A stretch of 59,181 nt of DNA, filler included, from Circinaria calcarea (lineage: Eukaryota), in the NCBI GenBank assembly GCA_051942165.1. It is 7 parts of 7 records of this genome, joined end to end, with 100 filler letters (N's around TTAATTAATTAA, not from the genome) between each part and the next. Parts side by side here need not be neighbours in the genome. Positions count along the whole stretch, not along the records: positions 33,959 to 42,305 come from JAVECS010001128.1; 6 more parts are not named here. One strand, 5' to 3'. This document shows, one piece after another, positions 8,402 to 50,846 of this stretch. The notes under the pieces are model-generated. The model worked only from the letters and a program-made list of their open reading frames with translations, did no database searches and was not told the DNA's origin. Position 1 is the first letter of the stretch. Each line of letters starts with the position of its first letter. The position numbers and the translations under genes are program-made.

Positions 8402-8501
8402 NNNNNNNNNNNNNNNNNNNNNNNNNNNNNNNNNNNNNNNNNNNNTTAATTAATTAANNNNNNNNNNNNNNNNNNNNNNNNNNNNNNNNNNNNNNNNNNN
8501 N
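8402..8501. other. Artificial contig linker (N44-TTAATTAATTAA-N44)
   Basis: 100-nt spacer with stops in all six frames, identical to the other five. Confidence 0.99.
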
Positions 8502-16896: not shown

Positions 16897-16996
16897 NNNN
16901 NNNNNNNNNNNNNNNNNNNNNNNNNNNNNNNNNNNNNNNNTTAATTAATTAANNNNNNNNNNNNNNNNNNNNNNNNNNNNNNNNNNNNNNNNNNNN
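16897..16996. other. Artificial contig linker
   Basis: N44-TTAATTAATTAA-N44. Confidence 0.99.
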
Positions 16997-25388: not shown

Positions 25389-25488
25389 NNNNNNNNNNNN
25401 NNNNNNNNNNNNNNNNNNNNNNNNNNNNNNNNTTAATTAATTAANNNNNNNNNNNNNNNNNNNNNNNNNNNNNNNNNNNNNNNNNNNN
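25389..25488. other. Artificial contig linker
   Basis: N44-TTAATTAATTAA-N44. Confidence 0.99.
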
Positions 25489-33858: not shown

Positions 33859-33958
33859 NNNNNNNNNNNNNNNNNNNNNNNNNNNNNNNNNNNNNNNNNN
33901 NNTTAATTAATTAANNNNNNNNNNNNNNNNNNNNNNNNNNNNNNNNNNNNNNNNNNNN
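33859..33958. other. Artificial contig linker
   Basis: N44-TTAATTAATTAA-N44. Confidence 0.99.
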
Positions 33959-36629
33959 ATGTTGCGTAGTAAGCTTGTGCCATTAGCAACCGATGCTATA
34001 GGTGGACCAGTTGTGTCTGTTGTCAAGCCGGTTGTAGCATAGCCTGTTGAGCCTTGGACGCATAGTGAGGAATTGCTCCATATTGCGCTTGCCGCATAAT
34101 TCCACAAGTTGGTAAGATTTAGAATGGTTTGTGGGGTAAAGAAAATCCTGCAATCGGTTGCCTCATAAACGAACTGCAGAGGAACATTCTGGCCTTCTCT
34201 AACTTGATCACGAAGATTAACACTTGCGTAGGTGATAAGGACATCTTCAGTTCGGTTAGGGAGGAGATAGCTCGTGGTGGCGTTGATTTTTTCTGCTATA
34301 TCAATGTCGGTATCGAGCGCCCCTACGGAGTAAGATCTAGCGCCACGATTACCACTCGGGGCCTGCATAGGACCCGAGGTTGGACGACCACCCACACTGA
34401 CCGTGCGAACACCTACTTCGTGATGCATCATCTCCATAAATAAAGCGCAGGCTGAGGCACACAATCCATCGCTGAGCTACAACAGTTAGCAGAGCAATGA
34501 AATCACCGCAAGGGAGGATTTGCCCACTATAATGATATTATCGGCCGAATACGGCGCTGGGGTTCCGATAAGAGAGCCACCCAGCCCTTGAAGTATATAT
34601 CCTGCCAATGCTTGTTCGTTGAAAGCCTGATTGCTGAAGTTATACCGTTGCTATGAAGTTCCCGGTTAGCCCTAAAGTACTTTCACCATCATTCCCCTAA
34701 AGACCTACGGTTTGTGTAAAATAGTCTCCGTTGTAAAGTAAAGGCCCGTAGAATTCGCCCCACGAAGTGAAGTTTTCACCAGTTGTTGCATCTAGACGGG
34801 CTGAAGCCACCCATTCATCAACGAGCAACCCATAATAATCATAGTCATCCGTCGATAGGCTATTCCAATAGCTTGTGAATGTGTTCCCTAGTGTGTCTGC
34901 TGTGGCATGGGCCCGCGATCGGCTTCCACCATAAGGGGTTTTCTCTGGAAAGAACTTAAGTTGTGGTTAGCTAATAGAAAGTGGTCAAGGAATACCGGCA
35001 CTTTACTTGTTGAACAGTATCAATAGCTAAGAATGTGTCACCTCCGCTGTTTTGCTGTAGATCAATAACAACATGCGCTAAACCTCCTTCTCGGCTGCGG
35101 TGTAGAAATTCGCGGACAGCATTCGAAAAAGTGCCGATAGCATCTCCGTATTCCTGAAAGCTCGGAATGCTTAGGACCGCTGTAGACGTGTCGTTGAGGA
35201 AATATCCGGTGACAAATCCTCCACCATTGACAGCGCCACTTATTGCTAAGTCTGGTTGAATCACATCGGCTGAAGGATAGGGAAAGATGGGCCAGCCGGT
35301 AGGTGTAGCCGTAACGGAAAAAGAGCTTGTCTCAGAAGGAACACTGGAGGTTGCAGTAGCTGCAAACGTAGAAGAGTTGTCAATTGCCGCAGGCTCTGAA
35401 TTAAATGATGCAGGATAAAACCCTAAAACCTATTGTGTTCCATTCAGCATGAAGTTGCATTTTAAGATGTGAACTAGGGACGCACAAAGAAATTATAAAA
35501 GTCTCCTCCGGTTTCTAGTGGTCCCGTGGGTCCGGGGCTATTGTAAACTGCAATGAAGTTTTCTGGACCAACTTGAGTGCCATTTTCCAACACAAAGGTC
35601 ACAGATTCTCCGGGATAAAACGACCCGAAGCCATTAAAGACGCTATAGTAACCCTGAATCTCTAAAGCTGGAGAATACATGAGAGAATTCCAGTCGGCAT
35701 GGGGCTCGACGTATGCGAAGGCATTAATAGCTGCGTATTGCGTGAGATACGAAATCGCATCTTCCCCGTTTATGGTCTTGATTGCTGAGAGTTGAAAGCT
35801 AGCTCCATTTTCCTGAATGGCAGACAGATCATCTGTTACTCGGTCAGCTCCTTGACTGGATGTAGCCCTGGGTGGAGATACATACCGGTAAGATAAACCT
35901 TGGGAACTTGTATGCCGTCAATGGATACTGAAGATATTCCGTGTCGCGATCCAAAGCTAAAGGCCGCAAGCACGCCCGCCATAAGGCTGAGATGCCCGTC
36001 GTGGGCAGAGTAGACAAGACTCTGAAGGGACGCCTCGAACTCATACTGATTCTGGAAGACTCCTGTATTGATTTGTTGTTGCAGGTACTCCAGACCTCCA
36101 ACGAAGTCCACCGGTTGCTGCTGATAACTCGCTGGCGGATTTTTTAAATATGCCAGCGTGCTTTGAAATTGGAGAGTATCGTTGTAGTATTGGAGAAATC
36201 GAGTAGCCACGGCAGGGTTAAAAGGAACGCTAGTAAGACCTATTGAATATAAATAGATATAGTGGTAGGACGCGAATTCACTCACAATCATAGGCCTGCT
36301 TGGCTGGAAATAGGTAGGTACCTATGATCTGGTCAACAATTATATCCCTTGGACTTTTGAAGGATAAGCTGAGGCCGGAGATATTAAGCTGTCTATGCTA
36401 ATCACATCTCGAGAAATCTCAGGACGTGACACAACCACGGACAGCTCGAGGAGAGGATGTTTCGGGAGATGCCCATTGCAAAGTTACCATTATGTTGGCT
36501 CTCGTTGACAATATCGCCACACACCGACGAAAGAGGTACAGGAGCACTGGATATCGGAGAAGATTCTGGTGTAGGGACCGCAAGGGCCCTGGCTAACAGT
36601 AGGAGCGGAAGAACAAGGGAGAGGTGCAT
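33959..36629 (-). CDS. Secreted fungal peptidase S41 family protein (multi-exon, 3' truncated)
   Basis: Signal peptide MHLSLVLPLLLLARALAVP. Motifs AYDCLTSVPFNP, QFQSTLAYLKNPP, AHDGHL, VIDLQQNSGG, catalytic-type DGLCASAC and VSVGGRP...GPMQ. Confidence 0.88.
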
Positions 36630-38192
36630 TATGGCACGCTGTGCGCGGATATCCAGAAAAAGGTAAAGACTGTGTTTGGGTGAGGAAAAAGTGCCGTTTG
36701 AAGGCAGAAGGCGAGAGATAAGAATTTATAAGTCCATGATATCAGAGGTTCCTACTGCTCCTAGGTAATTGCTGCCGTTCAGCCTCATCAACGACCCCAT
36801 ATGTGGTGCTGCTCATTTCCCGTGGACCCCAGCCGCCGAACGGCCCGTCCCATGGGGGCCGAGGTGAAGGTTGGGTCCACGAGTTGTGGGATGGATGATA
36901 GTTCCGTAGTTGTCCAAAGATTCGTGGCTGTTGGTGCGCTTGAATGCTCGTCGCAGCAACAGATTTAATTCGCAAGCCCTTCTATTCCTTTGGCTCTTTC
37001 GCTTTGACGCGTCAACCCACCCACCCATCGTAAGGCTCCAGCCCTAGTTTGCCTTATGCAGGAGAAGATCAGCGCGCCGGCCTAGTCTGGTTATTCAATC
37101 GCAACGTGGGGGTCGATGCTCGATTCCTCCGTCCTGGCCTCAATTATTTTTATAGTGTATTGGCACTGTCTAACTCATAATTCCCGCTTTACCCTAATAC
37201 GTATTGCTCTTATTCGGGACTCGAACTCTTTCGCACTCGAGAGAGCTCTGCGGGATTCATCAATTTCACCAAAGGGAAAGGATCAATCCTCGGGCCATGA
37301 GCGTTCTAGGCGTTGTCATCAGGATCATCAGACGTCAAGGCTTTTCCCGAGTAGGGTACTTACCACAGTACAGTGGCTCGGAGTGTATGTTGTAAGTAAT
37401 TGGCCCGCTGCCCAAGCGAGTTATGCAGCGTCCTTGTCCAGTGATGAGTACGGAGGTACGGAGTAATCAAGCTTTGCCACTCGGACGCAATCGGAGGCGC
37501 TCCCACAGTAGTGCTGATTCATTCCCAAGCAGCCCCTTAGATGATGGTTAGAATAATAAAAATAGGATCGGCATAAAATTATTCGACCTTACGTATTCGA
37601 CTATTCGATTGCCGACTATTCCGACTGAGCGTGACGAGCGTTGAAACGCTTAGCAATGAAATTTCCGGCGGGCATTACTCTACGTGACATGTCCTGCATA
37701 TGCTCCGCCACCATTAGAATATGCGAGGATAAGGCACCACTCTAACACCATCCCTATCATTCGTCAAGACTAATTAGGAAAACCCGCTACTGGGATGCAA
37801 TTCAGGTGGGGCGTAAAAATCTCCACCGACATCTATTCTAGGCGCCACTGCAATCGAGTCGGCGATGAGTTTTCCCATCCAGCCTCGATTGGCTCCCCTT
37901 AAATGTTCCTCGTTTCCTTTCCCTTCCTTTCCCTTCCTTTCGAGTCCTCCTGACCACTAATGTTATCATATCCAAAGTACGAGTTTTCGGGAAGCTAAGA
38001 TAAGCGGTACTCAAATGTCTTTGCACACCGGATTTTTCGTGCCGTGGTTATGCATTATCGGAGTTATTAGAATTTGTTCTCCCTCACACTTTTGAGCTAT
38101 GCGAACTGAGTCCGCTTTCTGTAAATTGAGACTCAGTATATAGGCGGCACGGCACCTTCGGTGTGATTCCGGTCGGCATTTCGGCAGTAGTG

Positions 38193-41100
38193 ATGGATCC
38201 CCTCAGCGTATTAGCCTCTACTGCTGCTCTTTCTCATGTTGTGCACAATCTATATGGAATCTGCAATAGCATACGGAAAGAAACCGAAGAACGCAAAGTA
38301 CTTGGCAGAAGTTTAGACCTTGTGCAATCCATCATCACAGCCTTGGATCGCCGCAAACAGGGCTCTAAGCTCGGACAGGAATGGTATCAAGGTTTGAAAG
38401 CTCTGGAAACGCCTCAAGGGCCTCTTGAACAGCTGAAAAAGGCTTTGGAAGACTTAGAAGCGGAGTTGAAGGCCACTCAAGAGGGCTGGAGGAGACTGGG
38501 CCAGAAGGTCCGCTGGCAATGGGATAAAGAAAAGTTTAGAGGCACTCTCGCAGATATCGATGATTTGTGTCGTAGAATCGATGTCGTACTAAGTCAAGAT
38601 CAGTGGACTCTATCCGTCGCCCATTATGATCTGTCAGCTCACCAGCAAGAGAAACAACAGAGGGACGAGGACGAAGCATTGAAACGAGAAATCGTGGCCT
38701 GGCTATCGCCACTCCACTTTCTAGCCAGGCAAAAAGAGATTTTTGAGAATAGTTTCCCAACCGGGGACCTACTATTAAAGTCCGATGAATTCAGGTGCGC
38801 TTATTTACTTTTGATTACGATAAGGAAGTCTACCTACGTGGGAGACTTTTAAGCCAGATTTATTTCCGTCACCCTGTGTTTGCAGCTTACAGCTACTTAG
38901 GTATTGGACGGTAGGACGTCCTTGGCAACTTCGATGCTATGGTCAGCCGGGATCAGGCAAGGTATGTATTTGAATCAAAGCCTACTGAGTAAAATTTACG
39001 ATATGGCCAAGATGCATTTTCGTAAGTTTATGTCGTCCGCCTGATTGTCGAGACCATCCTTGCTAAGCCATGGTCGTTAGATATTCTACCCGATAGCCCT
39101 GCAACCTGCCCAAAATTTCCTGAATCTGACTCTTCTCCTAGACAGTGCTTTCATCCATAGTGGTGGATCATTTGCAGAGGAAGAGCCAGGATCCAATCAA
39201 CCCCGTAATCTGCCTTTATCTCAACGAAAAGGAGTCCCGGATTCACACACCAGAAAATCTTCTCGGAAGCCTGCTTAAGCAATTGGTTCAGCTTAGGGGA
39301 CCCGAGGCTATATCAGAGAAGCTTAAATCGGTATATCGGAGAGCGAAGAATATAGAAGCTCCTCCCGGACTCAAAGAAATTCGTCAGACTCTATCGGAAT
39401 ACATTGCAGATTACGACAGAGTCTATCTTATTGTGGATGGCCTGAATGAATGCTCATCATCGGCTCGACCGTTGCTAGAACATCAGCTTCTCCATTTGCA
39501 TAAGGAGAAACTGAGTTTATTGGTTACGTTGAGAAACGTCGAAGGCAGAGCTCTCGGTTTTATGGAATGCGACAAATGTCACAAGAGGGATATCAGAGTC
39601 TATTGGAATTGCGAGATTTGCCGCTCTCTACCAAACCATAAACGTTTCGACGTATGCCAAGGCTGCAAAGATAAGAATGTGACTTGCAATAAAGACAAAT
39701 CCCATGAGCTCTCAGAACCGTACACTAGAATTGAAGTTGAGGTGATAACCTCTGACGCTGATCTTAAACAATACATAGGATCCGAAATCGAGAAAGAAAT
39801 TGGGAACAAAGGGTCGGAGATCAGGGATCCGGGGAGATATCCAATGCGTCATGGTATATCAAAGTTTGGGAGAGAATGCGATGATCACCCTGACCTGGTA
39901 GAAGAAATTTTCACCGTTGTTGTTGCGAAAGCACAGGGTAATTTCATCTTTGCAAAGCTATATATGAATTCTCTGAAAGCCAAGAAAACCTTGAAAAAAA
40001 TCAAACAAGCCTTGGAGAACCTACCTGAGAAATTAGACAACCTATATGAGGACGCTTTGAAGCGAATCAAATCTCAAGAAGACCGCGAATCGGGTTCTGT
40101 CGCCATAAAGGTTTTGTCTATTGTTGCCCGCACGCATCGACCTCTCAGTTTTGCAGAGCTTAAGCATGGCTTAGTTGTTAAGGCTGGAGACACCGATTTT
40201 GATCCGGAGGAGGACTACGACAAGGATGATATACTAGCCATGACCCAAGGACTCGTTACTATTGGCAATGATGACATTGGCATTGTACGACTCTTCCACC
40301 ACTCCCTGCAAGTATATCTTACCGATAACAGTACTCGCTGGCTTCCCACGGCTGAGGTCGACATAGCCCACACGTGTTTAGCGTATCTCAAAGATTTGGA
40401 CGCTTTTTCAGAACCTTGTAAGGGAGCTGGAGATTTCGAAGGGAAGAAAAAGAAGTATCCGTTCATTGCATACGCTTCTCAATACTGGGGGGATCATGTG
40501 CGAGGAGCCATGTCTGATCCGGGCATTCAAAGTGCGACTATGGAGTTTCTCCAAGATCCCCAGCGTGTTGCGGCATACATACAAGCAGCATGGTATACTG
40601 CGCAGGGCTTTGACGGCTGGGATGTGCGTGAGGGAATTGATCCTCTCCATATATGTGCTTGGTTTGGACTATCCTCCATTATCAAGGCATTAGATGAAGA
40701 AGATGATGATTTCAACGTTCATGTTGGGGATAGTACGCACTGGCAGACGCCTCTGATGTACGCTTGTCGGAGAGGGCACATTGAGGTTGTGCGCCAGTTA
40801 CTGGAACTCAGCGATCGCCGAATTCAGCAAGGAACGCGGCTTGTGAATCTCGTCAGCGGAAGGGGACGGACAGCCTTGTTTGAATGTATCATGCAGAACC
40901 AGGAAGAGATTGCCGAGTTTCTTTTAACCAGAAAGGAGCTTGAGATCAATGCAGTTCAGGCCAAGGAGTCCAATCGTACAGCTCTCATGGTTGCTGCGCA
41001 ATTGGGACACACTAGGATCGTCCAACATCTACTTGGCCATCCAGATATTGATGTAAACCTTCAGGATACGTCAGGATACACGGCGCTATACATAGCCGCT

Positions 41101-42305
41101 TTCAAAGGCTTCCCAGATATCGTTGAGCTTTTATTGGGGAAAACTGGAATTGATGTCCGACGTGTCGATAATGAGGCCGGCCGTTCCGCCTTGACAATTG
41201 CTGCCGAGACAGACAGGCACGAGGTTGTTAAGTTGTTTCTGCAGCATGATATCGCCATGGCATCCCTCATGGATCATCATGGAGGTACTGCTATGCTACG
41301 CGGCATTGAGAAGCAGCGTGACTCAGTTATAAGGGTGATGCTGGAGTTTGATTTGGATTTTAACTGCATCGACAATAACAACCGCAGCCTGCTCCATGGT
41401 GTCAGTGCCGCGGGGTATTTCAATTTCATTCGCCTACTAAAAGTGAAAGGCGTCAATCAAGACGCTCAGGATAACGATGGTTTTACTCCGTTGCATGACG
41501 CCAGCATGAATGGCAGACCGCAAGCTGCAAAGGTCCTGCTTGAGGAATTAGGGGCGAATTCCAGCATCAACGATAACTATGGCAGGACGCCATTCAGGGT
41601 GGCCTGGGAATACGGACAGACACAACTCATGAGCATTCTCAAGGCGAACAACACGAACCCGCAGGCTGATCCTATGCTGGTCCCATCATCAGCGGAACTA
41701 CCTATTTGGGCACTCGTAAACCAAGGACGCTTAGACCTAATCACAAAAGCACTCACAACGAGGAAAAGCGACTTCAGCCAGAAAGAGCCCGGCACGGAAA
41801 ATAATATCTTACACTGCGCAGCAGAAGGAGATAGCATTGCCATACTCCAAACCCTCCTCCAGAACACCGACATATCTCCCGATGACATCAACCGGACAGG
41901 CCGCACGCCGTTACACCTAGCAGCTTACTATGGCGACTTAGCAACCGCCAGTGCCCTGATCGAGCACCACGCCAACCTTGACGTCCAGGATCTCTACACC
42001 TACACCCCTCTGTATGTAGCCCAGATGGAAAAGGGTTTGACCGTTGCAATCGCGTTGATTGAGGCAGGTGCGAAGATCGATGCGACCAAGATTGACGTGC
42101 AAGACATGTTCTTCGCCGCGGTGGAGCTTGGCAACGTGAAGGCGATAGGTATCTTACTTGCAACAGGGGCGGAGGTGCTGGGTAGGAACGAGGAAGGGCA
42201 GACGGCAATGCAGCTTGCCACAAAGGCGACTCATTCTGAGATGATCCAGCTGCTGGAGGTGGAAGAAGAGAAGGCGAGCGAGAAGAGGGGAGGCGAAAGG
42301 CAGAC
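38193..42305 (+). CDS. Fungal NLR-like STAND protein: helical N-terminal domain, NACHT with inserted Cys/His zinc finger, winged helix, ankyrin repeats (no stop before contig end)
   Basis: MDPLS-type N-terminus and introns 38795-38900 and 38962-39141. The spliced Walker A reads GQPGSGKT and Walker B reads YLIVDGLNEC. Further motifs: KAQGNFIFAKL, RPLSFAELKHGL, YPFIAYASQYWGDH and more than ten ankyrin repeats (TPLMYAC, TALMVAA, TPLHDAS, TPLHLAA). Confidence 0.92.
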
Positions 42306-42405
42306 NNNNNNNNNNNNNNNNNNNNNNNNNNNNNNNNNNNNNNNNNNNNTTAATTAATTAANNNNNNNNNNNNNNNNNNNNNNNNNNNNNNNNNNNNNNN
42401 NNNNN
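42306..42405. other. Artificial contig linker
   Basis: N44-TTAATTAATTAA-N44. Confidence 0.99.
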
Positions 42406-42998
42406 CCGTGTGTCGGATATGTTTTAGAATAGGATAAGCTGGAACTCGAAGTGAAGCTGCCATCATGTGGGGTATTCTCGGTCCTTGGACTCGGGAATGA
42501 GCTTGGGATTGGCACATTTGAATAGGGGGAAGTAGTGAGGTCTGGTAATTTCTGTAAGCTTGAGCTTTTCATGGATGATGTCCTACCACCCAAGGGATAC
42601 ATACCACCCGCACTTTGACCGAGTAGTGGCTTTATCAGATCGATGACTGCAGATAGCCGCAGCTTGATATTTCTGTTCTCGGCCTCGACAACTTCCTTCT
42701 GCTGGAGGACCTGGCGCAGCTCCTGATACGGCTGCTGAGAGGTCAAATCGCGAATCGTCCTTTCCAGCGTCTCGATCTGAGTTTTGGTCCTCTCCCTAAT
42801 GGCCCGCTGGGCTTCTCGATCATTTGCCCGCTTCTTGGCCAATTGATCCGGTGTGAGGTTGGCCACGCCTCGAGAGCCCGAGGCCGACCCTCGCCGCCTC
42901 TTGTTCGACCGAGGCGCGCTGGAGACGGTGTCGGTGGGGGAGGGCGCCGCGGTACTGGGCGACAGTCTGCCATCGTCTTTATGCGCGTGGTCGGACAT
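42406..42998 (-). CDS. bZIP transcription factor, fungal bZIP/DUF3425-type (3' truncated)
   Basis: Basic region and zipper LTPDQLAKKRANDREAQRAIRERTKTQIETLE. A probable intron starts GTATGT at 42604. Confidence 0.85.
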
Positions 42999-43582
42999 GC
43001 CCAGCAGGACTAAAATCCTGCCTACCTCATGAAGTTACTCCGCACCCTGCAATTGCGGTAATGCGTTGATGGAGGATGCTGTTTCGGTCAGGATTCATCC
43101 CCTTTCCCGCTCTGCTCGAGTCATGTTGGGCCGGATGAGGCTAGACGATAATATGATTATTCTCCGAGACGAGAGCTTATTGCCTTAGTCGAGGGAGCAC
43201 GCAGCACTGGTGACCGGAGAGAACCCTTGTTGAATTGGCACCCTGCCTTTCGATAGGTATACGATTATTATCAGCTAATCAACCTTTCCCTCCCGATCCT
43301 TCTCGTCAACTTTCCCGCTTACTTTGCTTCGACTCACAGAGTCATTGTGGTGGGCCGCGAGCTTGGCTCCAAAGAGGAATTTGTCCAACTCGACGACGAA
43401 CATCAGGGAGTTACATTCTACAATCACTAAACCGAAATTGCTCTTTGGAAGGGGGAATCCATTCGAATTCGCAGTAACTGGCCAAAGCTCTACATCAGGA
43501 GGAGCTCTATTCTGTGATTGAAACATTCATCTATCTCATCCTCAAGTACCCTCGTCTCGTACGACCTGCCCTGCACCAGGAC

Positions 43583-50746: not shown

Positions 50747-50846
50747 NNNNNNNNNNNNNNNNNNNNNNNNNNNNNNNNNNNNNNNNNNNNTTAATTAATT
50801 AANNNNNNNNNNNNNNNNNNNNNNNNNNNNNNNNNNNNNNNNNNNN
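50747..50846. other. Artificial contig linker
   Basis: N44-TTAATTAATTAA-N44. Confidence 0.99.

What the first reader, a model, noticed from the sequence alone, without database searches (positions are those of the whole stretch)
39568..39705. ZZ-like zinc finger inserted inside the NACHT domain of a fungal NLR
Seen: right after the sensor-1 strand lies CDKC-x10-CEIC-x11-CQGC-x6-C-x5-H, and then the NACHT helical region resumes (ITSDADLKQYI...KAQGNFIFAKL). Known: fungal NLRs are usually effector-NOD-repeat, ZZ fingers can read N-terminal residues/N-degrons, and plant NLRs use integrated sensor domains. Inference: an integrated sensor or regulatory module inside the switch domain, defining a possibly undescribed NLR subclass. 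This is the strongest lead in the window.
Basis: partly seen in the sequence, partly recalled or inferred. Interest (0 to 1): 0.7.

Follow-up and report, generated by a model that had tools for sequence, protein, structure and literature searches.

The report
Nbr1-like ZZ finger inside fungal NLR
A lichen-fungus immune-receptor-like gene carries a real two-zinc ZZ finger, closest to the cargo-binding finger of the autophagy receptor Nbr1, spliced into the middle of its ATPase switch domain, and the same layout is shared by a large, old clade of ascomycete receptors.

Summary
It lies between the sensor-1 strand and strand beta5 of an NPHP3_N/NACHT domain. The gene is a HeLo-like/SesA-type N-domain, NACHT, ankyrin NLR of Circinaria calcarea.

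It is a genuine ZZ finger. The window's own copy is below Pfam's threshold. However, the family profile hits p62, BIG, Nbr1, p300 and other solved ZZ domains, and the AlphaFold model superposes on Nbr1 ZZ1 and p62 ZZ at 1.6-1.8 A.

ZZ-less relatives bridge the same gap with about 11 residues, so it is a true insertion. All eight ligands are kept in 160 of 195 aligned relatives, from three classes of Pezizomycotina, with one inferred gain and rare loss.

New here: the nearest non-NLR relative is the first ZZ of fungal Nbr1, with the same CxxC-x6-C-x4-H ending.

Function is inferred only. I read it as an integrated peptide or N-terminus binding module coupled to the switch.

ZZ fingers in fungal NLRs are in print, but as C-terminal domains. 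I found no description of this intra-NBD placement or of the Nbr1 link. Verdict: new variant of a known kind, interest 0.6.

The parts
38193..38794 (+). Exon 1: N-terminal helical domain (about 200 aa, starts MDPLS), HeLo-like/SesA-type putative effector domain
   Evidence: Translation. Only a weak MLKL_N hit (E 0.15). Full-length relatives give sub-threshold SesA (2.4e-4) and PigL_N/Helo_like_N (2.8e-6, 5.3e-5) hits.
38795..38900 (+). Intron 1 (106 nt, GTGCGC...TTAG)
   Evidence: Read from the sequence. Placed by homology to Lobaria P0022 across the P-loop.
38901..38961 (+). Exon 2: strand beta1 and Walker A (…WQLRCYGQPGSGK)
   Evidence: Translation. The deposited model P0003 uses another acceptor and loses the P-loop.
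38962..39141 (+). Intron 2 (180 nt, GTATGT...CTAG)
   Evidence: Read from the sequence. Exon 3 then starts in phase 0 with TVLSS.
39142..39537 (+). Exon 3, first part: rest of the NBD, with Walker B (LIVDGLNE, 39427-39450) and the sensor-1 strand LSLLVTLRN (39511-39537, R131)
   Evidence: NPHP3_N at 54 bits (cut-off 24.8), residues 1-129 matching profile positions 36-162 of 164. V98, D99 and R131 are at least 90% conserved. Strand E124-129 in the model.
39538..39567 (+). Variable N-side linker into the finger
   Evidence: Mean pairwise identity 0.117. pLDDT 63 for residues 131-140.
39568..39705 (+). ZZ-type zinc finger (46 aa, eight ligands C143 C146 C157 C160 C172 C175 C182 H188), Nbr1-ZZ1-like subtype
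39706..39753 (+). Conserved C-side linker (x-L-x-E-P) and strand beta5 (RIEVEVI)
   Evidence: After the last His: L in 112, E in 105 and P in 116 of 163 distinct fingers. Aligns with the beta5 segment of ZZ-less relatives.
39754..40098 (+). Helical domain 1. Includes a second family-specific Arg-rich loop at 39802-39876.
   Evidence: Helices 205-220 and 241-330. The loop is modally 31 aa, against 8-11 aa in ZZ-less relatives.
40099..40332 (+). Winged-helix domain of the NOD module (nearly invariant H386)
   Evidence: GPIID_WHD is weak in the window (E 0.15) but above threshold in relatives. H386 is at least 90% conserved.
40639..42305 (+). Ankyrin repeat region, cut by the end of the contig (N/linker from 42306)
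   Evidence: Ank_2 1.4e-75 and other Ank families. N runs.

Best explanation
Shown. The segment is an exonic, two-zinc, cross-brace ZZ finger. It is inserted in the short loop between strand beta4 (sensor 1) and strand beta5 of the NACHT (NPHP3_N-type) nucleotide-binding domain. The host protein is a tripartite fungal NLR: HeLo-like/SesA-type N-domain, NOD, ankyrin repeats. The insertion is the hallmark of one large clade of Pezizomycotina NLRs. Its finger belongs to the same subtype (CxxC…CxxC…CxxC-x6-C-x4-H) as the first ZZ domain of the fungal autophagy receptor Nbr1.

Inferred. The finger was copied from Nbr1 ZZ1, or from a common ancestor, into the NLR once. It has since been kept as an added ligand-binding module. 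Like Nbr1 ZZ1 and p62 ZZ, it would dock a protein N-terminus or short peptide plus adjacent surface in the groove between its hairpin and sheet. It hangs directly off the sensor-1 strand at the nucleotide face of the NBD. Occupancy would therefore bias the ADP/ATP switch or the protomer-protomer contact, and so gate oligomerisation and firing of the N-terminal cell-death-type domain.

The ligand could be an external cue: a neo-N-terminus, or a factor that normally targets Nbr1 (sensor or decoy reading). It could also be a host regulator. This cannot be told from sequence.

My odds: real conserved ZZ insertion 0.95 or more; Nbr1-ZZ1-type origin about 0.7; ligand-coupled control of the switch about 0.4.
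For: Identity of the finger:
- The family profile (30 sequences) against all PDB sequences gives p62 ZZ as best hit (E 1.8e-5). BIG, S. pombe Nbr1, dystrobrevin, p300/CBP, ZZZ3, PRT1, KCMF1, MIB1, Ada2 and HERC2 ZZ domains follow.
- 24 of 30 family members match PF00569 at E up to 1, best 1.4e-6.
- The ZZ-only AlphaFold model has pLDDT 81.9. Its top Foldseek rows are all ZZ domains, TMq 0.55-0.64.
- VIA-align puts the Nbr1 ZZ1-Ams1 complex 7dd9 first (Z 6.5, rmsd 1.8 A over 50 residues), then p62 ZZ (Z 6.3, rmsd 1.6 A over 48). 39 of 168 chains have Z of 5 or more.

Insertion:
- ZZ-less relatives P0084, P0085 and P0086 join sensor 1 to beta5 in 11-12 residues; the family uses 51-76.
- The finger lies between the NBD and HD1 matches in 174 stored proteins.
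- The NOD model has pLDDT 90.3 and pTM 0.83, with the finger at pLDDT 85-93. It matches CED-4, NOD2, MalT, NLRC4 and Apaf-1.

Conservation and origin:
- 160 of 195 aligned relatives keep all eight ligands.
- On a tree built without the ZZ columns, presence or absence needs 2 changes over 198 rows: one split, plus a loss in P0191 nested in a 97* clade.
- Named members come from Lecanoromycetes, Dothideomycetes and Leotiomycetes.

Nbr1 link:
- A ZZ-profile search of longer proteins returned the NLR family, fungal Nbr1 homologues (PF16158), and one Death-NACHT-ZZ array protein.
- In 28 of 29 Nbr1 homologues the best match is the first ZZ. It carries the same x6-C-x4-H ending in 27 of 29. Median score is 35.2 bits, against 11.6 for the next ZZ in the same protein.

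Pocket and added function:
- The Asp equivalent to p62 D149 / Nbr1 D83, which anchors the alpha-amino group, is kept in 137 of 163 fingers.
- The D129/N63 position is D or N in 108 of 163. Residue roles come from PMC6197226 passages and bioRxiv 2021.02.07.430097 sections 8 and 10.
- The same subtype also sits C-terminal of the ankyrin repeats, the usual sensor side, in P0226, P0245 and P0266.
- ZZ-less relatives have only a short loop at this site, so the finger is an addition and not a replacement of a fold element.
Against: - No functional, binding or expression data exist. No RNA run was listed.
- The window's own finger scores only 10-11 bits against PF00569, whose cut-off is 21.4. Only 1 of 16 full-length relatives passes that cut-off.
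- In the window's protein the position equivalent to p62 D147 / Nbr1 D81 is Arg. D81R abolishes cargo binding in S. pombe Nbr1. Family-wide this position is acidic in only 51 of 163 fingers and basic in 35. p62 R139 is replaced by Tyr in 116 of 163. A canonical N-degron pocket is therefore not generally preserved.
- Non-ligand positions of the finger are poorly conserved: mean pairwise identity 0.24, against 0.35 for the NBD. This fits diversifying specificity, but equally fits a weakly constrained surface.
- One ancient gain with long retention is unlike the sporadic distribution typical of plant integrated decoys.
- Structural scores are modest: no Foldseek match at E of 1e-3 or better, and all VIA Z values are below 8.
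- The NOD model lacks beta1 and the P-loop (exon 2 was not included). No coordinates or PAE were available, so the finger's orientation relative to the nucleotide site is not shown. Its proximity to the switch rests on general P-loop/STAND topology, which I recalled.
- Sampling is biased. The queries contained the ZZ, so ZZ-less relatives are under-sampled. The tree is FastTree on 166 columns, with 80 of 195 inner branches unsupported.
- The direction Nbr1 to NLR is not rooted.
Confidence: 0.55

Rival explanations
1. Internal regulatory or assembly module with no external ligand. The finger contacts another part of the same protein (WHD, ankyrin repeats, the N-domain or the co-occurring Arg-rich loop) to hold the closed state. 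Alternatively it forms part of the protomer-protomer interface in the active oligomer.
For: - One ancient gain, with retention in 160 of 195 relatives, suggests an integral part of the machine.
- The C-side linker x-L-x-E-P is conserved.
- A second family-specific Arg-rich loop co-occurs with the finger. It is modally 31 aa, against 8-11 aa in ZZ-less relatives.
- The insertion site corresponds to the beta4-alpha4-beta5 region, which is intersubunit in AAA+ rings (recalled knowledge).
Against: - The finger's non-ligand surface is the least conserved structured part (0.24). That is unexpected for a fixed intramolecular interface.
- The Arg-rich loop has low pLDDT (65-75), so no docking is predicted.
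- Coupling of the loop to the finger is not strict. 11 of 160 intact-ZZ rows have a short loop, and P0191 lost the ZZ but kept the loop.
- The same subtype also works as a C-terminal appendage.
Confidence: 0.3
2. Essentially structural or neutral. A zinc-stabilised knob was captured once and is kept because its loss destabilises the surrounding loop. It has no binding function.
For: - The weak conservation outside the ligands.
- The altered pocket residues in many members, including the window.
Against: - ZZ-less relatives fold with an 11-residue loop, so nothing structural needs it.
- Purifying selection has kept eight ligands and the alpha-amino-anchoring Asp (137 of 163) across three fungal classes.
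- Decay events are scattered and rare.
Confidence: 0.08
3. Zinc or redox sensor. Oxidation of the cysteines, or zinc starvation, unfolds the finger next to sensor 1 and releases the switch.
For: Seven cysteines hold two zinc ions directly adjacent to the nucleotide-sensing strand. This is inference only.
Against: No specific evidence. ZZ domains with known function are peptide-binding modules. The conserved groove Asp is not explained by this reading.
Confidence: 0.05
4. Not a real protein feature: an unrecognised intron, a pseudogene remnant or an assembly artefact of the metagenome-assembled contig.
For: - 138 nt is a multiple of three.
- The deposited gene model is wrong elsewhere (P-loop exon).
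- No RNA data are available.
Against: - No stop codons occur in a 1055-codon frame.
- The segment does not begin with GT or end with AG.
- Independent gene calls in many other assemblies keep the same segment. Its ligands are conserved at 33-78% overall protein identity.
Confidence: 0.02

Closest known systems
Nbr1 ZZ1 (first ZZ domain of the fungal selective-autophagy receptor Nbr1; S. pombe structures 7dd9 and 7dde)
   Same: - It is the best structural match: Z 6.5, rmsd 1.8 A over 50 residues.
- Pezizomycotina Nbr1 ZZ1 shares the full ligand spacing, including CxxC-x6-C-x4-H. It scores 31-43 bits end to end against the NLR-finger profile.
- The conserved F/Y-D-L-C motif and the D/N after the first Cys correspond to the N63/D83 pocket that reads cargo N-termini.
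   Different: - Nbr1 ZZ1 is a free-standing domain in a receptor with three further canonical ZZ fingers and an FW domain. Here the finger is a single copy embedded in an ATPase domain.
- Mean identity NLR finger to Nbr1 ZZ1 is 0.369, against 0.439 among NLR fingers.
- The D81-equivalent is variable, and is Arg in the window.
p62/SQSTM1 ZZ domain (N-degron reader)
   Same: - Best sequence-profile hit among solved structures, E 1.8e-5.
- Superposes at 1.6-1.8 A.
- Ligand binding to p62 ZZ controls higher-order assembly (PMC6197226, passages read). This is a useful analogy for coupling to NLR oligomerisation.
   Different: - p62 ends its finger with His ligands. In one search the alignment to it stops at profile position 34 of 41.
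- R139 and D147 of the p62 pocket are mostly not kept in the NLR fingers.
Fungal NLRs with C-terminal ZZ or other treble-clef fingers (Sordariales survey, PMC12258605)
   Same: ZZ as a non-canonical domain of fungal NLRs: 17 ZZ among 57 zinc-finger NLRs (section 14). My data also hold three such proteins with the same finger subtype after the ankyrin repeats.
   Different: - There the fingers are described as C-terminal.
- The one ZZ row I saw in Table S3 (part 2 of 35) has ZZ(1091,1124) after TPR(500,991) in an NB-ARC NLR.
- Here the finger interrupts the NBD itself. I could not search the other 16 rows.
Plant NLRs with integrated domains (integrated decoy or sensor model; e.g. HMA in RGA5/Pik-1, WRKY in RRS1; recalled)
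   Same: A domain copied from a host protein involved in defence-related processes is built into an NLR. NBR1 is both antiviral/antibacterial and engaged by pathogen factors in plants (PMC9582228, passages read).
   Different: - Plant integrated domains sit at the termini or between major domains, not inside the NB domain.
- They are usually lineage-restricted, whereas this finger is ancient and clade-wide.
- No effector is known.
Canonical fungal HeLo-like/SesA-NACHT-ANK NLRs (T-NACHT/NPHP3_N type)
   Same: N-domain, Walker A, Walker B, sensor 1, WHD His and ankyrin repeats are all present.
   Different: They carry an 11-12 residue beta4-beta5 loop where this clade carries a 46-residue zinc finger. 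They also lack the Arg-rich HD1 loop.

Membership tests
ZZ-type zinc finger (Pfam PF00569) | Eight zinc ligands in the cross-brace order CxxC…CxxC…CxxC…[CH]x[CH] | tested here: met
   C143, C146, C157, C160, C172, C175, C182 and H188. Invariant or at least 90% conserved in 51 sequences. 160 of 195 relatives keep all eight.
ZZ-type zinc finger (Pfam PF00569) | Score above Pfam's gathering threshold (21.4 bits) | tested here: not met
   The window's copy scores 10.0 and 11.3 bits. Only P0060 of 16 full-length relatives passes, at 23.5 bits. As isolated fingers, 24 of 30 match at E up to 1, best 1.4e-6. The family profile does hit solved ZZ domains significantly, so I treat the threshold miss as a sensitivity limit and not as an exclusion.
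ZZ-type zinc finger (Pfam PF00569) | ZZ fold: N-terminal hairpin, small antiparallel sheet and short helices around two zinc sites | tested here: met
   Model pLDDT is 81.9, with strands at 16-20 and 33-35 and helices at 21-25 and 36-40. Top Foldseek rows are all ZZ domains. VIA gives Z 6.5-5.0 and rmsd 1.6-2.5 A to Nbr1, p62, BIG, KCMF1, HERC2, CBP and Ada2 ZZ domains. Zinc itself is not modelled.
ZZ-type zinc finger (Pfam PF00569) | Conserved aromatic-x-Cys before the second pair, and D-[YF]-D-L-C motif before the third pair | tested here: met
   The family consensus aligns to p62 across these motifs. In 163 fingers: F/Y in 128, D in 137, L/I/V in 153. The first Asp of the motif is variable.
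N-terminus-reading ZZ domains (p62, Nbr1 ZZ1, p300, ZZZ3 type) | Acidic pocket: residues equivalent to p62 D129/N132/D147/D149 or Nbr1 N63/D81/D83 | tested here: inconclusive
   D149/D83 equivalent is D in 137 of 163. D129/N63 equivalent is D in 77 and N in 31. D147/D81 equivalent is D/E in 51 and K/R in 35. The window reads D, R, D. Peptide binding is not testable with these tools.
Nbr1-ZZ1 subtype | Terminal ligands as CxxC-x6-C-x4-H, with an end-to-end match to the same profile | tested here: met
   27 of 29 Nbr1 homologues carry this ending in their first ZZ. Median 35.2 bits, against 11.6 for their other ZZ fingers. The modal NLR spacing is identical (74 of 163). The window has x6-C-x5-H.
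NACHT / STAND NTPase (NPHP3_N type) | Walker A, Walker B, sensor-1 Arg and winged-helix His, with the family HMM above threshold | tested here: met
   GQPGSGK in exon 2. LIVDGLNE, R131 and H386 are conserved. NPHP3_N scores 54 bits against a cut-off of 24.8. Foldseek finds CED-4, NOD2, MalT, NLRC4 and Apaf-1.
Fungal tripartite NLR | N-terminal effector-type domain plus NOD plus C-terminal repeats | tested here: met
   Ankyrin repeats score 1.4e-75. The N-domain is only weakly typed: MLKL_N at 0.15 in the window, and SesA and PigL_N/Helo_like_N below threshold in relatives. The effector class is therefore provisional.
NLR with integrated decoy or sensor domain | The extra domain is homologous to a domain of a separate host protein | tested here: met
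   The nearest non-NLR relatives are fungal Nbr1 ZZ1 domains. The direction of transfer is not rooted.
NLR with integrated decoy or sensor domain | The extra domain binds a pathogen-derived or danger ligand and thereby activates the receptor | not testable with these tools
   No ligand candidate and no expression or functional data are available.

The most novel reading that the evidence does not exclude
This clade of fungal NLRs carries a decoy or sensor copy of the cargo-binding ZZ1 finger of the autophagy receptor Nbr1, wired directly into the beta4-beta5 loop of the ATPase. The receptor would then sense protein N-termini inside the switch domain itself. Candidates are protease-generated neo-N-termini, or viral or microbial factors that target Nbr1-dependent autophagy. 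This would be an integrated-domain mechanism at a position not known in plant or animal NLRs. It would also give the first generic ligand class for a fungal NLR outside allorecognition.
Probability: 0.2. Interest if true: 0.85.

Novelty: new variant of a known kind. Interest (0 to 1): 0.6.

Why it matters
To my knowledge (recalled, not from a call), what most fungal NLRs recognise is unknown. Their non-canonical domains have so far been catalogued only at the termini.

A clade-wide, zinc-dependent, Nbr1/p62-type peptide-binding finger sitting on the sensor-1 strand gives a concrete experimental handle. The isolated finger is small enough for peptide-array, pull-down and structural work. Pocket or Cys mutants give clean tests of whether ligand binding is coupled to the nucleotide switch.

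It also shows that standard Pfam thresholds miss this domain in most members (15 of 16 full-length relatives). Surveys of NLR architecture therefore under-count it. It further links NLR surveillance to selective autophagy in fungi, as a hypothesis.

Tried and rejected
- Expression: no RNA holder was listed for 38193-40600.
- No whole genome is held for this window, so paralogues in the same genome could not be counted.
- Earlier-findings look-ups by words and by sequence returned nothing.
- Pfam on the window's own finger is below threshold.
- Foldseek with the ZZ-only model gave no match at E of 1e-3 or better. I used VIA-align as a second look.
- Foldseek with the whole NOD model found STAND ATPases but no separate ZZ rows.
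- I tried to find the 17 Sordariales ZZ rows in the supplements of PMC12258605. Searches for PF00569, zf-ZZ, ZZ-type, zinc, IPR000433, 'ZZ Ank' and 'NACHT ZZ' found nothing. Two-letter terms are not accepted. Reading part 2 of 35 of Table S3 showed one ZZ row, which is C-terminal. The remaining rows were not seen, and file s005 cannot be read.
- My first identity comparison of NLR against Nbr1 fingers was contaminated. Nbr1 proteins were counted as NLRs because the classifier query held the ZZ. I discarded it.
- I considered the Arg-rich HD1 loop as a cis-ligand of the finger. Co-occurrence is common but not strict, and the loop is low-confidence in the model, so I left it as a side note.
- I considered the protein's own N-terminus as a ligand. 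It begins Met-Asp, which I recall is usually N-acetylated and so would not fit a free-amine pocket. I did not pursue it.
- Model coordinates and PAE are not available to scripts, so contacts of the finger with the NBD or WHD could not be measured.
Full report
**What is there**

The window is seven contigs of about 8.35 kb joined by N-ttaattaattaa-N linkers. The finding lies in the contig 33959-42305.

On the + strand a three-exon gene starts at 38193. Exon 1 (38193-38794) encodes a helical N-domain that begins MDPLS. Exon 2 (38901-38961) encodes strand beta1 and the Walker A loop, …WQLRCYGQPGSGK. Exon 3 (39142 onward) is a single 1055-codon open frame that runs into the contig end.

The exact protein is on record as a partial hypothetical protein of a Circinaria calcarea metagenome-assembled genome. 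Circinaria calcarea is a lichen-forming Lecanoromycete. That deposited model uses a wrong acceptor for exon 2 and loses the P-loop.

Pfam gives the following on exon 3:
- NPHP3_N at 54 bits (cut-off 24.8) over residues 1-129.
- A weak winged-helix hit.
- Strong ankyrin repeats from about residue 500.

Walker B (LIVDGLNE), the sensor-1 Arg (R131) and the winged-helix His (H386) are present. They are at least 90% conserved among relatives.

**Check of the observation**

Residues 143-188 of exon 3 (bases 39568-39705) read CDKC-x10-CEIC-x11-CQGC-x6-C-x5-H, exactly as reported. The motif sits 11 residues after the sensor-1 strand LSLLVTLRN. It is followed by ELSEPYTRIEVEV and then the helical region.

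No other such motif exists in any frame of the window.

The pattern recurs in 68 of the 87 homologues. In a 51-sequence alignment that deliberately included nine regex failures, C143 is invariant and the other seven ligands are at least 90% conserved. Among 195 relatives whose NBD-to-HD1 region could be aligned:
- 160 keep all eight ligands.
- 31 keep two to seven.
- 4 have none.

**Is it a ZZ finger?**

The window's own copy is below Pfam's threshold: 10-11 bits against 21.4. Only 1 of 16 full-length relatives passes it. This explains why the domain is rarely annotated.

The family as a whole is unambiguous on three lines of evidence:
- A 30-sequence profile of the finger was searched against all PDB sequences. 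The sequences had been chosen by the regex, so ligand invariance in that alignment is by construction. The profile hits p62/SQSTM1 ZZ best (E 1.8e-5). BIG, S. pombe Nbr1, dystrobrevin, p300/CBP, ZZZ3, PRT1, KCMF1, MIB1, Ada2 and HERC2 ZZ domains follow.
- 24 of 30 isolated fingers match PF00569 at E up to 1, best 1.4e-6.
- An AlphaFold model of the finger alone (pLDDT 81.9) finds only ZZ domains at the top of Foldseek. E-values are weak (0.04-1) and TMq is 0.55-0.64.

In the VIA-align second look it superposes on the Nbr1 ZZ1-Ams1 complex 7dd9 (Z 6.5, rmsd 1.8 A, 50 residues) and on p62 ZZ (Z 6.3, rmsd 1.6 A, 48 residues). 39 of 168 chains have Z of 5 or more, and none reaches 8. These Z values are modest for so small a domain, and they agree with the sequence evidence.

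**Is it inserted in the NACHT domain?**

Yes. Relatives without a finger join the sensor-1 strand to the beta5 segment through 11-12 residues. These are P0084 Pseudogymnoascus, P0085 Lambiella and P0086 Fusarium. The family uses 51-76 residues.

In 174 stored proteins the finger lies between the match to the NBD part and the match to the HD1/WHD part. 29 more are N-terminally cut models with the finger just before HD1.

A model of exon-3 residues 1-486 is confident, with pLDDT 90.3 and pTM 0.83. The finger is at pLDDT 85-93, and the N-side linker is flexible at pLDDT 63. The model's fold matches CED-4, NOD2, MalT, NLRC4 and Apaf-1.

Limits of that model:
- It lacks exon 2 (beta1 and the P-loop), which is probably why beta5 is not assigned as a strand.
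- Neither coordinates nor PAE were available to me, so the finger's orientation is not shown.

**How wide and how old**

A phmmer search used residues 75-300, finger included, against 1.84 billion cluster representatives. It found 446 proteins at E up to 1e-3, 169 at 1e-10 and 22 at 1e-30. 95 of the 138 new representatives listed carry the strict eight-ligand motif.

Named members belong to three classes:
- Lecanoromycetes: Circinaria, Lobaria, Xylographa, Gyalolechia, Puttea, Bacidia, Loekoesia, Usnea.
- Dothideomycetes: Cryomyces, Bathelium.
- Leotiomycetes: Halenospora, Venustampulla, Rhexocercosporidium.

I built a FastTree tree from the flanking columns only, with the ZZ columns removed. 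On it, presence or absence of the finger needs two changes over 198 rows. One is a single split from the ZZ-less rows. The other is a loss in P0191, which is nested in a 97* clade of 24 ZZ-bearing rows. Partial fingers are scattered (21 changes). Some are 88-92% identical to intact neighbours, so they may be gene-model errors.

Caveats:
- The queries contained the finger, so ZZ-less relatives are under-sampled.
- 80 of 195 inner branches are unsupported.
- The root is set on two distant rows.

I searched the finger profile against longer proteins in the 5.8-billion set. It returned, besides the NLR family, fungal homologues of the autophagy receptor Nbr1 (Pfam PF16158 with ZZ) and one Death-NACHT protein with about 15 tandem canonical ZZ fingers.

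In 28 of 29 Nbr1 homologues the best match is the first of their four ZZ fingers. It aligns end to end, and in 27 of 29 it has the same CxxC-x6-C-x4-H ending. The median is 35.2 bits, against 11.6 bits for the next-best finger of the same protein.

Mean identity over the 41-residue form:

| Comparison | Mean identity |
|---|---|
| Among NLR fingers | 0.439 |
| NLR finger to Nbr1 ZZ1 | 0.369 (maximum 0.561) |
| Among Nbr1 ZZ1 | 0.647 |

An earlier version of this comparison was contaminated and is discarded.

So the NLR finger forms its own group, and Nbr1 ZZ1 is its nearest outside relative. Copying from Nbr1 into an NLR is the likelier direction, because Nbr1 is an ancient conserved receptor (PMC9582228, passages read). 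The data here do not root it.

The same subtype also occurs C-terminal of the ankyrin repeats in three other NLR-like proteins: P0226 Geoglossum, whose NBD has no insertion, and P0245 and P0266.

**What the relatives do**

- p62 ZZ binds N-terminal Arg in a groove lined by D129, N132, D147 and D149, with R139. Binding drives p62 assembly (PMC6197226, passages read).
- S. pombe Nbr1 ZZ1 binds the free N-termini of the cargo hydrolases Ams1 and Ape4 through N63, D81 and D83, plus cargo-specific surfaces. N63R or D81R abolish binding (bioRxiv 2021.02.07.430097, abstract and sections 8 and 10).

I mapped these positions through the alignment onto 163 distinct NLR fingers:

| Position (p62 / Nbr1) | In 163 NLR fingers |
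|---|---|
| D149 / D83 | Asp in 137 |
| D129 / N63 | D in 77, N in 31, S in 26 |
| D147 / D81 | D/E in 51, K/R in 35 |
| R139 (p62) | Tyr in 116 |

The window's protein reads D, R, D at the first three positions. It also has a loop four residues longer than the mode before the third Cys pair. The anchor for a free alpha-amino group is therefore largely kept. The specificity-determining rim is variable, and in the window's own copy it is non-canonical.

**Mechanism**

Shown: a conserved zinc finger of a peptide-binding class is added to, and does not replace, a short loop that starts at the sensor-1 strand.

Inferred from general P-loop/STAND topology, which I recalled and did not measure: the C-terminal end of beta4 lies at the nucleotide gamma-phosphate face. 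The beta4-beta5 connector is at or near the intersubunit face in AAA+-type assemblies. A domain hung there is well placed to couple binding to nucleotide state or oligomerisation.

My preferred reading (about 0.4) is a ligand-binding module whose occupancy gates the switch. The ligand would be a protein N-terminus or peptide. This reading covers both a sensor and a decoy of Nbr1.

The main rival (about 0.3) is an internal regulatory or assembly contact without an external ligand. It is favoured by the single ancient gain and by the conserved x-L-x-E-P C-side linker. It is disfavoured by the poorly conserved finger surface (0.24, against 0.35 for the NBD).

The other rivals are unlikely for the reasons given with each: a purely structural knob, a redox or zinc sensor, and an annotation artefact.

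**Comparison with the literature**

Four full-text searches found no paper describing a ZZ finger inside a NACHT domain or an Nbr1-like domain in an NLR:
- 'zz-type' + NACHT + fungal: 0 papers.
- zinc finger / NACHT / fungal NLR / domain architecture: 85 papers held at least three of the four terms, 20 listed.
- 'ZZ domain' + NOD-like receptor + fungi: 2 papers, both irrelevant by their titles and abstract openings in the search listing.
- NBR1 / integrated domain / NLR / ZZ domain: 22 papers, 12 listed, none relevant by their titles and abstract openings in the search listing.

The closest paper is the Sordariales NLR survey (PMC12258605). I read section 14, passages of section 20, and parts of the supplements. 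It reports:
- 57 NLRs with zinc fingers, 17 of them ZZ.
- 52 in the C-terminal position.
- 16 treble-clef fingers next to C-terminal repeats.

The one ZZ row I could see in its Table S3 is a finger after the TPR repeats of an NB-ARC NLR. The other rows could not be searched, so I cannot exclude that some lie inside the NACHT span.

A UniRef name, 'ZZ-type domain-containing protein', exists for the Cryomyces minteri member.

**Verdict**

- The feature is a new variant of a known kind: an NLR with an integrated domain, at an unusual intra-NBD position and with an Nbr1-ZZ1-like origin.
- Function is untested.
- Interest 0.6.

Noticed in passing
window 8402-8501, 16897-16996, 25389-25488, 33859-33958, 42306-42405, 50747-50846: The window is not one locus. 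It is seven contigs of about 8.35 kb, joined by 44 N + ttaattaattaa + 44 N linkers. Neighbours across these joins are not physically linked.
   Followed up: partly
window 38795-39141: The deposited protein model (P0003) uses a different acceptor for the 61-nt second exon. It reads it out of frame, which removes strand beta1 and the Walker A loop. With exon 2 at 38901-38961 the P-loop …WQLRCYGQPGSGK is restored, in agreement with the Lobaria homologue.
   Followed up: yes
window 39802-39876: There is a second family-specific insertion: an Arg-rich, low-confidence loop in helical domain 1. It is modally 31 aa, against 8-11 aa in ZZ-less relatives. It usually co-occurs with the finger, but not strictly. 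11 of 160 intact-ZZ rows have a short loop, and P0191 lost the finger but kept the loop.
   Followed up: partly
window 33959-36725, minus strand: The upstream neighbour on the same contig is a multi-exon gene for a CPAF-like S41 peptidase (PDZ_CPAF_rel 1e-22, Peptidase_S41 1.6e-5). Its first ORF has a signal-peptide-like start. No link to the NLR is evident.
   Followed up: partly
protein P0228, unnamed Logan source: A 1729-aa protein carries Death and NACHT domains followed by about 15 tandem canonical ZZ fingers (H-x-H type). This is a ZZ array in the place where NLRs usually carry LRR, WD40, TPR or ankyrin repeats.
   Followed up: partly
proteins P0226 (Geoglossum umbratile), P0245, P0266: The same Nbr1-ZZ1-like finger subtype occurs C-terminal of the ankyrin repeats in NLR-like proteins. 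It is tandem in P0245. The NBD of P0226 has no insertion. The finger has therefore been placed at two or more positions in fungal NLRs.
   Followed up: partly
window 42408-43034, minus strand (next contig): A 209-codon open frame with a basic, coiled, bZIP-like stretch gives no Pfam hit at E up to 0.01.
   Followed up: no
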